Below are positions 37,571-39,594 of a DNA stretch of 64,000 nucleotides, one piece after another (the stretch's first letter is position 1; the number at the start of each line of letters is the position of its first letter). The notes below the pieces were generated by a model. It was given only the letters and a program-made list of their open reading frames with translations, was not told where the DNA came from and did no database searches. Source of the stretch: the human T2T-CHM13v2.0 reference genome, Homo sapiens; NCBI RefSeq assembly GCF_009914755.1, contig NC_060937.1; one strand, 5' to 3'. The position numbers were made by a program, and so were the translations under genes.

Positions 37571-38376
37571 TTTAGAAAGAGGAAGGAAGATAGAGAGAGA
37601 GACAGACAGACAGAGTGAGAGAGATGAGAGAGAAGCCAGAGGGGGAAGAGAGGTCCAGAATTTAATACTTTCCCAGTTTTTCCAACTTGCATCTCAACCC
37701 CTTATGTCTGGGTTTTAGCAGTGGATACTTTGAGATTCTAATATTTATCTCCTCAGAAGGTGAGATGCAGAAGAAGAGATAGGAAATTGAGATAATAACT
37801 ACTTTCTTCTGATGGGTGGGAAAAATTCTATATGAGAATTTTTCTACCAAGACACATGTGAAAGGAAGTGGCAACATGTGGCAATTCATCTAAGATCAGC
37901 AACTTTTTTTCTCTGTTTGAATTTGTTGATTTGGAAGGTATTTGTCTAGCTCTGCAACAGAATCATTACTTGCTCTACCAACTTTTCTAAAGTCTCACAT
38001 GCTGATGCCAGTTAAGAAAGAATACATTTTAGTCTGTCAACTTTTGCTTACAAAAGAGGTTCTAAAAGTGTGTTCCAATGTAATTTGAACACTCTTTCAA
38101 GATGGTGCATATTTTAGTAGGTCCACAGAACAGTAAATATAACTTGATAATCACCCCAAACATTTCTTGAATTGGGAAATCGAATTGGCAGGTTTGCATA
38201 ATAAAGGGCTAAAATTATGAACCACACAAGATTTGCCTGAAACTTGATTGTTCAGGCTCACAATTCTCTACTGAATACTCTTGTGCTTGCTTTTGTATTT
38301 ATCCATTTTCATGTAACTGCTTAGAGCAGACATTTCTTTTTTAAATCTTTTTTCATAAAAATAAATTTTAATAAAT

Positions 38377-39594
38377 ATGCCGGCGGATGGTAGGGATGCC
38401 GACCCTACCGAGAAGCAGGTGGCAGAAACAGAGAGAAACGATGAGGAGCAGTTCGAATGCCAGGAACGGCTCAAGTGCCAGGTGCAGGTGGGGGCCCCCG
38501 AGGAGGAGGAGGAGGAGGAGGACGCGGGCCTGGTGGCCGAGGCCGAGGCCGTGGCTGCCGGCTGGATGCTCGATTTCCTCTGCCTCTCTCTTTGCCGAGC
38601 TTTCCGCGAAGACCGCTCCAAGGACTTCTGCAGGACCCGCAACAGCGCAGAGGCTACTATTCACGGACTATCCAGTCTAACAGCTTACCAGTTGAGAATG
38701 ATATACGTATGTCAGTTTTTGACAAGAATTGCAGCAGGAAAAACCCTTGATGCACAGTTTGAAAATGATGAACGAATTACACCCTTGGAATCAGCCCTGA
38801 TGATTTGGGGTTCAATTGAAAAGGAACATGACAAAGTTCAAGAAGAAATACAGAATTTAATTAAAATTCAGGCTATAGCTGTTTGTATGGAAAATGGCAA
38901 CTTTAAAGAAGCAGAAGAAGTCTTTGAAAGAATATTTGGTGATCCAAATTCTTACATGCCTCTCAAAAGCAAATTGCTTGTGATAATCTCTCAGAAAGAT
39001 ACATTTCATTCCTTTTTTCAACACTTCAGCTACAACCACATGATGGAGAAAATTAAGAGTTATGTGAATTATGTGCTAAGTGAAAAATCATCAACCTTTC
39101 TAATGAAGGCAGCAGCAAAAGTAGTAGAAAGTAAAAGAACAAGAACAATAACTTCTCAAGATAAACCTAATGGTAATTATGTTGAAATGGAAACTGAAGC
39201 TAATTTGGATACAAGAAAAAGGTCTCACAAGAATCTTTTCTTATCTAAGTTGCAACATGGAACCCAGCAACAAGACCTTAATAAGAAAGAAAGAAGAGTA
39301 GGAACTCCTCAAAGTACAAGAAAGAAAAAAGAAAGCAGAAGAGCCACTGAAAGCAGAATAACTGTTTCAAAGAGGCAACCGGTAACTCCTGAAAAACATC
39401 GAGCTAGAAAAAGACAGTCATGGCTTTGGGAAGAAGACAGGAATTTGAGATCTGGCGTGAGGAAATATGGAGAGGGAAACTGGTCTAAAATACTACTGCA
39501 TTATAAATTCAACAACCGGACAAGTGTCATGTTAAAAGACAGATGGAGGACCATGAAGAAACTAAAACTGATTTGCTCAGACAGCGAAGACTGA
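38377..39594 (+). CDS. Uninterrupted 405-aa TRF1/PIN2-like ORF (acidic region, TRFH, Myb/telobox); expression unproven
   Basis: No stop or frameshift; ATG supplied by the TSD with A at -3; Myb motif WLWEEDRNLRSGVRKYGEGNWSKIL...VMLKDRWRTMKKL intact. Confidence 0.5.
   Translation: MPADGRDADPTEKQVAETERNDEEQFECQERLKCQVQVGAPEEEEEEEDAGLVAEAEAVAAGWMLDFLCLSLCRAFREDRSKDFCRTRNSAEATIHGLSSLTAYQLRMIYVCQFLTRIAAGKTLDAQFENDERITPLESALMIWGSIEKEHDKVQEEIQNLIKIQAIAVCMENGNFKEAEEVFERIFGDPNSYMPLKSKLLVIISQKDTFHSFFQHFSYNHMMEKIKSYVNYVLSEKSSTFLMKAAAKVVESKRTRTITSQDKPNGNYVEMETEANLDTRKRSHKNLFLSKLQHGTQQQDLNKKERRVGTPQSTRKKKESRRATESRITVSKRQPVTPEKHRARKRQSWLWEEDRNLRSGVRKYGEGNWSKILLHYKFNNRTSVMLKDRWRTMKKLKLICSDSED

What the first reader, a model, noticed from the sequence alone, without database searches (positions are those of the whole stretch)
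38370..39594. 5'-truncated TERF1 retrocopy rescued by an ATG in its own target-site duplication: intact 405-aa TRF1/PIN2 ORF
Seen in the sequence: the cDNA starts at about 38382, having lost TRF1 codons 1-15. The TSD aataaatATGcc (repeated at 41200-41211) supplies ATG CCG exactly in frame with GCG GAT GGT, with A at -3. The frame then runs unbroken to the native stop, covering TRFH and the Myb/telobox domain. Inference: this presumed pseudogene has the coding capacity for a near full-length telomere-binding shelterin paralog. Caveats: by my count against the TRF1 sequence as recalled there are about 25 amino-acid changes, compatible with neutral drift and chance ORF survival, and no promoter is visible upstream.
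Basis: partly seen in the sequence, partly recalled or inferred. Interest (0 to 1): 0.8.

Follow-up and report, generated by a model that had tools for sequence, protein, structure and literature searches.

The report
TERF1 retrocopy with chance-intact ORF
This is the annotated processed pseudogene TERF1P5, whose 405-codon reading frame really is open from an ATG in its insertion-site duplication, but its mutation pattern is that of junk DNA drifting neutrally, so the open frame is most likely luck.

Summary
Window 38377-39594 (+) is an unbroken 405-aa ORF. Its ATG lies in a 12-bp target-site duplication (38370-38381 and 41200-41211). It continues in frame into a TERF1 cDNA that starts at parental codon 16 and lacks exon 7, which is the PIN2 isoform.

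New here: the insertion was later copied by segmental duplication to chr18 and chr21, flanks and ATG included. The chr18 copy is also an intact 405-aa ORF. The chr21 copy has a stop and a 22-nt deletion. A gorilla protein model matches the chr13 copy.

Every test of constraint fails.
- Substitutions private to chr13 are 14 nonsynonymous to 2 synonymous, against a neutral expectation of 2.5:1.
- Both intact lineages together give 28:7, and four broken copies give 64:19 (Fisher p=0.81).
- The parental lineage gives 5:6.
- The ORF diverges from its chr18 paralog faster (3.27%) than the non-genic flanks (2.17%).

Estimated chance of an intact frame is about 0.20 for chr13 and about 0.05 for both copies. 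There is no CpG island upstream. The tankyrase-binding motif is lost.

Verdict: a known processed pseudogene whose ORF survived by chance. Expression could not be tested. Low interest.

The parts
38370..38381 (+). 5' target-site duplication AATAAATATGCC; it holds the ORF's ATG (38377-38379) and is preceded by TTTT
   Evidence: Exact 12/12 repeat of 41200-41211, and the only two exact copies in the window. The same TSD and flanks occur in the chr18 and chr21 paralogs.
38382..38382 (+). Extra G at the 5' junction, absent from both the TSD and the parent (parent has T here); it completes codon 2 (CCG, Pro) and keeps the frame
   Evidence: present in all 3 paralogs. Whether it is an untemplated or cap-derived addition or a mutated parental base was not resolved.
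38377..39594 (+). Intact 405-aa ORF (MPADGR...SDSED, then TGA)
   Evidence: Aligns to human TRF1 in PDB 8ox1_L at E=7e-242.
38383..41187 (+). Intronless TERF1 cDNA (PIN2 isoform) running from parental codon 16 to the parental poly(A) site
   Evidence: Nine parental exon blocks on chr8 are contiguous here, at 94.8-100% identity per block. 95.9% identity to the rebuilt mRNA over 2798 columns. RefSeq annotates TERF1P5 at 38383..41190 (finding text).
38563..39141 (+). TRFH (dimerisation) domain coding part, ORF residues 63-255
   Evidence: Pfam PF08558, E=2.4e-38. PDB TRFH chains such as 1h6o_A, E=2e-123.
39221..39222 (+). Exon 6 / exon 8 junction: exon 7 (60 nt, 20 aa) is absent, which is the PIN2-type splice form
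   Evidence: The independent chrX copy at C23:82.18 Mb carries the 60-nt exon here.
39412..39555 (+). Myb/telobox DNA-binding domain coding part, ORF residues 346-393
   Evidence: Pfam PF00249, E=1.9e-11. PDB 1w0t_A, E=5.4e-29. Two conservative chr13-private changes here, A382S and K389R in TRF1 numbering.
39595..41187 (+). 3'UTR-derived part, including an Alu (about 39957-40250) that is also in the parental 3'UTR
   Evidence: One continuous alignment to the last chr8 exon: 95.3% over 1762 columns, with 63 mismatches and 9 gap openings. A deletion near the 3' end, listed as 19 parental positions, is private to chr13.
41188..41199 (+). Decayed A-rich tail (aaaaaataaata) at the parental cleavage site
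   Evidence: The boundary with the TSD is ambiguous because both are A-rich.
41200..41211 (+). 3' target-site duplication AATAAATATGCC
34980..43721 (.). Minimum extent, limited by what was fetched, of the segmental duplication that carries the retrocopy and is shared with chr18 and chr21
   Evidence: Colinear at about 96.7% with chr18 (34980-42188 and 42179-43721) and at 96.6% with chr21 (34006-43999).

Best explanation
TERF1P5 is an L1-mediated processed pseudogene of the PIN2 splice form of TERF1.

Origin. It inserted once into a TTTT/AATAAATATGCC target. The cDNA began at parental codon 16, so the promoter, the start codon and the first three residues of the tankyrase-binding motif were left behind. 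By coincidence the duplicated target carries an ATG. With one extra G at the junction, that ATG is in frame.

Later history. The block was copied by pericentromeric segmental duplication to chr13, chr18 and chr21. Since then all copies have drifted neutrally. By chance the chr13 and chr18 copies have not yet been hit by a stop or a frameshift, and the chr21 copy has.

Shown here: the anatomy, the shared origin of the three paralogs, the absence of any amino-acid-level or rate constraint, and a chance-survival probability that is not small.

Inferred: the L1 mechanism, the dating, and that the locus makes no selected protein. Dating places the duplication well before the human-gorilla split, because the gorilla model shares 7 of 14 comparable chr13-private changes. 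It places the insertion roughly 1.5 times older than the duplication, from tree branch lengths.
For: Retrocopy hallmarks:
- Exon blocks are contiguous with no introns.
- There is an A-rich tail at the parental 3' end.
- The 12-bp TSD is exact and TTTT precedes it.

Single origin. The chr18 copy (C18:14540471-14541688, -) and the chr21 copy (C21:12120386-12121572, +) have the same flanks, TSD, ATG, extra G and 5' end at mRNA nt 46. The tree groups the three with 100% support.

No constraint:
- CDS substitutions private to chr13 are 14 N : 2 S. With the family stem this is 17:2.
- The chr18 lineage gives 14:5, and the union of the two intact lineages gives 28:7.
- The neutral expectation is N 0.686, S 0.271, stop 0.043. 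It comes from the empirical spectrum of 231 private substitutions.
- omega <= 0.5 is rejected for the union (P=0.0026) and for chr13 (P=0.002).
- The intact lineages do not differ from the four broken copies at 64:19 (Fisher p=0.81).
- The parental-lineage patterns give 5:6, omega about 0.33. This serves as a positive control.
- NG86 omega for chr13 against chr18 is 0.62. That lies inside the 0.42-0.70 range of the 6 pairs of broken copies.

Rate:
- chr13-private changes are 16 in the CDS and 17 in the UTR, about 1.3% and 1.1% of the roughly 1212 and 1583 comparable sites.
- chr13 against chr18: ORF 40/1224 = 3.27%, flanks 128/5895 = 2.17% (p=0.029, the ORF being faster).
- 1.87 gap openings are expected in the ORF and 2 are seen. 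Both are in frame and both lie in the Glu/Ala-Glu-rich stretch of the acidic region.

Chance survival. P(intact) is about 0.20 for the chr13 lineage. It is 0.26 for chr18 given chr13, and 0.05 for both.

Other full-length copies. All four are broken: chr21 has a CGA>TGA stop and a 22-nt deletion. chr4 has 1 stop and 2 frameshifts. One chrX copy (C23:73.76 Mb) has 2 stops and 1 frameshift. The other chrX copy (C23:82.18 Mb) has 1 stop and a 4-nt deletion.

Promoter. The 2 kb upstream has GC 0.38 and CpG o/e 0.09.

Motif loss. 13-RGCADG-18, described as essential for tankyrase 1 binding (PMC5397190, passages read), is reduced to M-P-A-D-G.

Literature context. In Carelli et al. 2016, only 271 of 665 intact retrocopy families showed purifying selection (PMC4772013, one passage read).
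Against: - Two of the three paralogs keep the full 405-codon frame. The a priori joint probability is about 0.05, or lower if the lesion rate is taken only from the broken copies.
- A gorilla UniProt model (P0035, G3SB61_GORGO, 370 aa) is the orthologue of the chr13 copy. It shares 7 of the 14 chr13-private changes that can be compared and none of the 10 changes seen only in the chr18 copy among the four sequences compared. It is open over 370 codons.
- DNA-contacting helix 3 of the Myb domain and F142 of TRFH are unchanged. The roles of these residues are recalled, not tested.
- TERF1P5 (ENSG00000226361) appears in one short-read differential-expression table at log2FC 2.195, p=0.029 (PMC11025590, table passage read).
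[quoted passage not shown] It also appears in an exosome proteome gene list in which TERF1 does not occur in the main text (PMC3407643).
- I recall, but could not verify, that LOC283523 is this locus. Cross-mapping from TERF1 is not excluded in any of these papers.
- Transcription, translation and human polymorphism could not be tested with these tools.
Confidence: 0.87

Rival explanations
1. Selected protein-coding retrogene. The chr13 ORF, and perhaps the chr18 ORF, would be transcribed from an unrecognised promoter, for example in germline, ES cells or tumours. It would be translated from the TSD-derived ATG into an N-terminally shortened TRF1/PIN2 paralog. That protein could dimerise through TRFH and bind TTAGGG through Myb, but would escape tankyrase.
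For: - Intact 405-aa ORFs in 2 of 3 paralogs.
- The gorilla orthologue model is open over 370 codons.
- TRFH and Myb domains score well above the Pfam cut-offs.
- There is an A at -3 and no in-frame upstream start.
- Joint chance survival is only about 0.05.
- An older NCBI model name, 'similar to TRF1 isoform 2', appears in print.
Against: - N:S is 17:2 on the chr13 lineage and 28:7 for both intact lineages. omega <= 0.5 is rejected and omega = 1 is not.
- The CDS evolves as fast as or faster than the UTR and flanks.
- 15 private replacements include T122M and S367R, at positions I recall to be regulatory phosphosites. My one search for T122 found 0 papers.
- chr13 has also lost M28, and chr21 is broken.
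- There is no CpG island upstream.
- RefSeq curates the locus as a pseudogene (finding text).
- After conditioning on how the locus was picked (because it is open), the surprise left is P about 0.26 for the chr18 copy.
Confidence: 0.04
2. A pseudogene that is transcribed but not selected as a protein. The locus would give low-level or tissue-restricted RNA, by read-through or as part of an unannotated lncRNA. Such RNA could cross-react with TERF1 probes, siRNAs or miRNAs. It might be sporadically translated without any selected protein function.
For: - TERF1P5 is listed in a differential-expression table.
- TERF1P3 and TERF1P4 are reported as decreasing on neuronal differentiation (PMC3168439, passage read).
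- An siRNA pool against the TRF1-like pseudogene LOC283523 was the top hit of a telomere-damage screen. The authors attributed this to 2 siRNAs of the pool matching TRF1 perfectly, with TRF1 protein reduced (PMC3121770, passages read).
- This reading is compatible with neutral sequence evolution.
Against: - None of the expression reports shows uniquely mapping reads, and the copy is about 96% identical to TERF1 mRNA.
- No promoter-like feature lies upstream.
- No transcript is annotated over the locus in the table supplied with the finding.
Confidence: 0.09

Closest known systems
TERF1P5 (RefSeq curated pseudogene, window 38383..41190)
   Same: It is this very locus. The annotated span equals the cDNA-derived part found here.
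   Different: The annotation row supplied with the finding does not mention the open 405-codon frame, the TSD-derived ATG or the chr18 and chr21 sister copies. Those details were worked out here.
TERF1 (TRF1), PIN2 splice form, chr8 parent gene
   Same: Same domain order: acidic N-terminus, TRFH, linker, Myb. 25 substitutions and one codon deletion over parental codons 16-419. Same stop codon. Exon 7 skipped.
   Different: - No introns and no promoter.
- Codons 1-15 are replaced by Met-Pro, so the tankyrase-binding motif 13-RGCADG-18 is destroyed.
- The parental lineage shows constraint (N:S 5:6) and the copy does not (17:2).
Sister copies from the same insertion: chr18 (C18:14540471-14541688, -) and chr21 (C21:12120386-12121572, +)
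   Same: Identical TSD, ATG, extra G, 5' end and flanks. About 96.7% identical over 7-10 kb.
   Different: - chr18 keeps an intact 405-aa ORF but with a different set of private replacements (8 N : 4 S).
- chr21 has a CGA>TGA stop at parental codon 147, a 22-nt deletion and a 3-nt deletion.
Independent TERF1 retrocopies on chr4, chrX (two) and chr2 (partial)
   Same: Same parent and similar divergence from it, 2.8-3.9% in the CDS. All are L1-type insertions with their own TSDs and A-tails.
   Different: They have different insertion sites and a different 5' end (parental CDS nt 24). All full-length ones are disrupted by stops and frameshifts. One chrX copy derives from the exon-7-containing isoform.
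Protein-coding retrogenes and translated 'pseudogenes', for example the Cx43 retrocopy cited in PMC5408686 (passage read)
   Same: An intronless copy with an intact ORF close to parental length.
   Different: [quoted passage not shown] The first was tested here and is not met. The second could not be tested.

Membership tests
L1-mediated processed pseudogene / retrocopy | Intronless copy of a spliced mRNA | tested here: met
   Nine chr8 exon blocks abut one another in the window with no intervening sequence. GT-AG boundaries were read in the parent.
L1-mediated processed pseudogene / retrocopy | A-rich tail at the parental polyadenylation site | tested here: met
   Homology ends at ..GAGTACCAT (41187) and is followed by aaaaaataaata. 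The parent continues with unrelated sequence. The chr4 and chrX copies end at the same place with longer A runs.
L1-mediated processed pseudogene / retrocopy | Target-site duplication flanking the insert, at a TTTT/AA-type L1 endonuclease site (consensus recalled) | tested here: met
   Exact 12-bp repeat, found only twice in the window. TTTT lies immediately 5' of the TSD, which starts AA.
L1-mediated processed pseudogene / retrocopy | Lacks the parental promoter and 5' end | tested here: met
   Homology starts at parental CDS nt 46. Upstream DNA is AT-rich with CpG o/e 0.09.
TRF1/PIN2 telomere-repeat-binding proteins (as an encoded sequence) | TRFH dimerisation domain | tested here: met
   Pfam PF08558, 132.5 bits against a cut-off of 25. 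PDB TRF1 TRFH chains at E down to 4e-133.
TRF1/PIN2 telomere-repeat-binding proteins (as an encoded sequence) | C-terminal Myb/telobox domain | tested here: met
   Pfam PF00249, 44.3 bits against a cut-off of 24.4. PDB 1w0t_A, E=5.4e-29.
TRF1/PIN2 telomere-repeat-binding proteins (as an encoded sequence) | N-terminal tankyrase-binding motif 13-RGCADG-18 | tested here: not met
   The ORF begins M-P-A-D-G-R, so R13, G14 and C15 are absent. An RG-to-AA mutant greatly diminishes TNKS1 binding (PMC5397190).
TRF1/PIN2 telomere-repeat-binding proteins (as an encoded sequence) | The protein exists and binds TTAGGG repeats at telomeres | not testable with these tools
   No expression, proteomic or binding data are available here.
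Functional protein-coding retrogene (criteria as stated in PMC7290577 and PMC5470649) | Intact ORF of length similar to the parental CDS | tested here: met
   405 codons against 419.
Functional protein-coding retrogene (criteria as stated in PMC7290577 and PMC5470649) | dN/dS significantly below 1 | tested here: not met
   N:S is 17:2 for the chr13 lineage and 28:7 for both intact lineages, against a neutral 2.53:1. P(N<=obs | omega=1) is 0.985 and 0.904. The ratio is the same as in broken copies. NG86 omega of 0.62 lies within the broken-copy range of 0.42-0.70.
Functional protein-coding retrogene (criteria as stated in PMC7290577 and PMC5470649) | [quoted passage not shown] | not testable with these tools
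   Only gene-list mentions were found, without mapping detail.
Functional protein-coding retrogene (criteria as stated in PMC7290577 and PMC5470649) | ORF kept open in orthologues and paralogs beyond chance | tested here: inconclusive
   - chr18 is open and chr21 is broken.
- The gorilla model P0035 is open over 370 codons but lacks both ends.
- Chance estimates are 0.20, 0.26 and 0.05.
- No ape DNA was available.

The most novel reading that the evidence does not exclude
The two intact paralogs on chr13 and chr18, each a 405-aa ORF starting at an ATG created by the insertion's own target-site duplication, might be translated in some setting such as male germline, early embryo or tumours. The product would be a TRF1/PIN2 variant that lacks the tankyrase-binding motif. 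It could heterodimerise with TRF1 through TRFH and make telomere-bound TRF1 resistant to tankyrase-driven removal. Such a product would be a hominid-specific modifier of telomere length control. Its function would have to be too recent, or too weakly selected, to show up in N:S counts.
Probability: 0.04. Interest if true: 0.65.

Novelty: already known. Interest (0 to 1): 0.15.

Why it matters
If the ORF were expressed and selected, humans would have an extra shelterin-like protein that tankyrase cannot bind. That would matter for telomere biology and for reading TERF1 knock-down, antibody and proteomic data.

The evidence here says otherwise. The locus behaves as neutral DNA. Its practical importance is as a confounder.
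- It is about 96% identical to TERF1 mRNA, and sister copies lie on chr18 and chr21. Short reads, siRNAs and peptides can therefore be mis-assigned.
- A published screen already hit a TRF1-like pseudogene for exactly this reason (PMC3121770).
- Automatic gene callers pick the ORF up.

It is also a worked example that an intact 405-codon frame, even in two paralogs, is not evidence of function.

Tried and rejected
I built no ancestral sequence. Instead I used pairwise NG86 counts, and counts of which copies carry the minority base at each column. These polarise changes only by majority, so recurrent CpG changes can be mis-assigned. Examples are R99C and the stop at codon 88, which occurs in both chrX copies.

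3. NG86 omega values taken at face value (0.62-0.63) would suggest mild constraint. I rejected that reading because pairs of demonstrably broken copies give 0.42-0.70 with the same method. A spectrum-aware expectation gives omega >= 1.

4. Two unnamed 'ena' proteins begin MPADGR: P0003 (403 aa) and P0030 (383 aa, a cluster of 141 members). I considered them as possible transcripts or human alleles. I rejected them as evidence because each mixes variants that are private to different copies (chr13, chr18, chr21, chrX). They look like chimeric assemblies.

5. A literature search for the TRF1 T122 / casein kinase 2 site found 0 papers. The functional comments on T122M and S367R therefore rest on recall only.

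6. Whether LOC283523 is TERF1P5 could not be established from the papers read.

7. CpG retention in the exon-1-derived GC-rich part was considered as a sign of an unmethylated promoter (20 CpGs against 23 in the parent). I rejected it because the broken copies retain 16-24.

8. No structure prediction, complex prediction or bacterial or viral collection scan was run. None would bear on the question.
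Full report
**Observation**

The window holds an unbroken ATG-to-TGA frame at 38377..39594 on the + strand. It encodes 405 aa beginning MPADGR.

- The 12-mer AATAAATATGCC occurs exactly twice in the window, at 38370-38381 and 41200-41211. When one mismatch is allowed there are 5 hits, shuffles gave a mean of 0.49, and 0 of 100 shuffles reached 5.
- The first copy contains the ATG. The second follows an A-rich tail.
- The ATG has A at -3 and C at +4. An in-frame TAA lies five codons upstream.
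- PDB holds full-length human TRF1 (8ox1_L, 439 aa). The ORF aligns to it from residue 16 to the C-terminus at E=7e-242, with a 20-residue gap at the position of the alternatively spliced exon.
- Pfam finds TRF (E=2.4e-38) and Myb (E=1.9e-11).

**Parent gene and anatomy**

A search of the window's own genome found the parent on chr8 as exon-sized matches. I fetched the gene, read its splice sites and rebuilt the exon-7-skipped (PIN2) coding sequence. It translates to 419 aa.

- The window matches nine parental exon blocks back to back. The match runs from parental codon 16 (GCG at 38383) to the parental 3' end at 41187. An Alu at about 39957-40250 is also in the parental 3'UTR.
- Base 38382 (g) is in neither the TSD nor the parent. 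It completes codon 2 and sets the frame.
- TTTT precedes the TSD.
- These are the hallmarks of an L1-mediated processed pseudogene. The L1 endonuclease consensus is recalled, not tested.
- The span agrees with RefSeq's TERF1P5 row, 38383..41190.

**Sister copies**

Copies on chr18 (C18:14540471-14541688, -) and chr21 (C21:12120386-12121572, +) share several features with the window:

- the same 5' end, TSD, ATG and extra G;
- colinear flanks at about 96.6-96.7% identity over 7-10 kb.

This means one insertion, later spread by segmental duplication. A tree groups the three with 100% support. The stem is 0.0093 and the chr13 tip is 0.0166 substitutions per site.

- The chr18 copy also has an intact 405-aa ORF from the same ATG.
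- The chr21 copy has a CGA>TGA stop at parental codon 147, a 22-nt deletion and a 3-nt deletion.
- Three further full-length copies (chr4 and two on chrX) have their own TSDs. All are broken by 1-2 stops and 1-2 frameshifts each.

**Where the 25 replacements come from**

Against the T2T parental PIN2 protein, the chr13 ORF has 25 substitutions and one deleted Glu codon.

- Fifteen are private to chr13: E26K, M28V, D92E, G93D, E96K, I108T, T122M, I125V, L168V, M216V, K349R, P363T, S367R, A382S and K389R (TRF1 numbering).
- Four are shared only by the chr13/18/21 family: L44R, E46K, H169Q and D282Y.
- Six are shared with independent retrocopies: R99C, C118Y, H207Y, F210L, S279N and S434C. These are most simply changes in TERF1 itself, or recurrent CpG hits for R99C.

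**Tests of constraint**

*1. Site-pattern counts*

| Lineage or pattern | N : S (plus stops) | UTR changes |
|---|---|---|
| chr13 private | 14 : 2 | 17 |
| chr18 private | 8 : 4 | 18 |
| chr13/18/21 family stem | 3 : 0 | 13 |
| chr18+chr21 branch | 3 : 1 | 1 |
| chr4, two chrX copies and chr21, private, pooled | 61 : 19, plus 3 stops | 85 |
| patterns involving the parent | 5 : 6 | not pooled |

*2. Neutral expectation and tests*

The neutral expectation on this ORF comes from the empirical spectrum of 231 private substitutions, with CpG transitions about 5 times other transitions. It is N 0.686, S 0.271 and stop 0.043, or N:S 2.53.

- The chr13 lineage (17:2) and the two intact lineages together (28:7) are at or above neutral.
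- omega <= 0.5 is rejected (P=0.002 and P=0.0026).
- The intact lineages do not differ from the broken copies (Fisher p=0.81).
- They do differ from the parental lineage (p=0.051), which gives omega about 0.33.

*3. NG86*

omega for chr13 against chr18 is 0.62. That lies inside the 0.42-0.70 range of the six pairs of broken copies, so the method's downward bias explains it.

*4. Rate*

- chr13 against chr18 differs at 40/1224 ORF columns (3.27%) and at 128/5895 flank columns (2.17%). Fisher p=0.029, with the ORF faster.
- 1.87 gap openings are expected in the ORF and 2 are seen. Both are in frame and both lie in the Glu/Ala-Glu-rich stretch of the acidic region.

*5. Protein-level comparison with gorilla*

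- The chr13 ORF differs from its gorilla orthologue model at 11 residues and 3 gap columns out of 373.
- A human TRF1 record (P0026) and gorilla TRF1 differ at 9 residues and 2 gap columns out of 439. Two of those 9 are peculiar to that human record when compared with the T2T translation.

**Chance of an open frame**

I used 0.043 stops per substitution. I used 5 frameshifts per 122 retrocopy CDS substitutions.

- The probability of an intact frame is about 0.20 for the chr13 lineage (19 substitutions).
- It is about 0.26 for the extra chr18 path (16 substitutions).
- It is about 0.05 for both.
- Taking the lesion rate only from the broken copies would lower these figures by roughly 2-4 fold. 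That is my estimate and was not run as a call.

The locus was picked because it is open, so the remaining surprise is the chr18 copy. That surprise is modest. In Carelli et al. 2016, only 271 of 665 intact retrocopy families showed purifying selection (PMC4772013, one passage read).

**Apes**

A protein search returned G3SB61_GORGO (P0035, 370 aa, 96% identical).

- It shares 7 of the 14 chr13-private replacements that can be compared: E96K, T122M, I125V, M216V, S367R, A382S and K389R.
- It shares none of the 10 changes seen only in the chr18 copy among the four sequences compared, so it is the orthologue of the chr13 copy.
- The chr13/chr18 duplication therefore predates the human-gorilla split. 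About half of the chr13 tip branch is older than that split.
- The model is open over 370 codons, but it starts at M28 and stops 18 residues short of the end. I had no gorilla DNA to see why.

**Function of the hypothetical protein**

- It would keep TRFH (F142 unchanged).
- It would keep a Myb domain with two conservative changes.
- It would lack R13-G14-C15 of the tankyrase-binding motif 13-RGCADG-18. That motif is described as essential for TNKS1 binding (PMC5397190, passages read).
- T122M and S367R fall on residues I recall to be phosphorylation sites. My one search for T122 found nothing.

**Promoter and expression**

The 2 kb upstream has GC 0.38 and CpG o/e 0.09. The exon-1-derived part keeps 20 CpGs against 23 in the parent, but broken copies keep 16-24, so this says nothing about activity.

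Print mentions:
- TERF1P5 appears in one differential-expression table (PMC11025590, table passage).
- TERF1P3 and TERF1P4 decrease in iPSC-derived neurons (PMC3168439, passage).
- 'LOC283523, similar to TRF1 isoform 2' is in a cerebellum mRNA-seq table (PMC2576459) and in an exosome proteome list (PMC3407643).
- The same LOC283523 was the top hit of a telomere-damage siRNA screen. The authors explained this by 2 siRNAs of the pool matching TRF1, with TRF1 protein reduced (PMC3121770, passages).

I recall, but could not verify, that LOC283523 is this locus. Searches for TERF1P5, TERF1P1-P4, 'TERF1/TRF1/PIN2 pseudogene', LOC283523 and ENSG00000226361 found no paper that discusses the open frame. 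Supplements were not read.

**Verdict**

The functional reading is not supported: this is a known processed pseudogene drifting neutrally, whose frame has survived by chance, as has the frame of its chr18 sister. What stays open is expression and human polymorphism, which these tools cannot test. I put about 4% on a selected protein and about 9% on unselected transcription with side effects.

Noticed in passing
L016 (G000:C18:14536001-14546000), ORF at C18:14540471-14541688, minus strand: The chr18 segmental-duplication sister of TERF1P5 also carries an intact 405-aa ORF from the same TSD-derived ATG. It has its own private changes (8 N: 4 S) and a 6-nt in-frame insertion.
   Followed up: yes
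L019 (chr4), L018 (chrX, C23:73.76 Mb), L020 (chrX, C23:82.18 Mb): Three independent TERF1 retrocopies have different TSDs and A-tails, yet all begin at the same parental nucleotide: CDS nt 24, GGCCCCGAG.... This could reflect a template mRNA 5' end inside exon 1, meaning an internal start site downstream of the annotated ATG. It could also be a reverse-transcription stop in GC-rich sequence. The chr13 family starts 22 nt further in, with an extra G at its junction.
   Followed up: partly
Proteins P0018 (Pan paniscus) and P0020 (Pan troglodytes), 391 aa, 'telomeric repeat-binding factor 1-like': NCBI models in both Pan species encode an open PIN2-type protein starting at M28. It has L44/E46, D92N and K366Q-type changes that match none of the six human copies compared here. 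This is possibly a further intact TERF1 retrocopy, absent from the human assembly or strongly diverged from any human one.
   Followed up: partly
Proteins P0003 (403 aa, 5 members) and P0030 (383 aa, 141 members), source 'ena', unnamed: Both start MPADGR but mix variants private to the chr13, chr18, chr21 and chrX copies. They look like chimeric short-read assemblies of human-derived DNA or RNA in which ORF callers picked up this frame.
   Followed up: partly
Parent gene, G000:C8:73437924-73476780 (L011-L015): Used as molecular fossils, the retrocopies indicate that human TERF1 itself changed after the retropositions. All six copies carry Y118, L210, N279 and C434 where the gene now has C, F, S and S. 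All have a shorter Glu run. Gorilla TRF1 also has Y118 and C434.
   Followed up: partly
window 41168-41169, against the parent at C8:73476760-73476778: A deletion private to the chr13 copy, listed as 19 parental positions, removes the stretch TTATCCTATATATAAACAG. That stretch holds a TATAAA-like hexamer about 25 nt upstream of the parental cleavage site. The chr18 and chr21 copies keep it.
   Followed up: no
G000:C18:12202830-12203105 (L022), G000:C2:190406623-190407127 (L007) and G000:C12:19316578-19316641: Further partial TERF1-like matches: 80% over 263 nt on chr18, 93% over 504 nt on chr2, and 83% over 64 nt on chr12. They were fetched or listed but not analysed.
   Followed up: no
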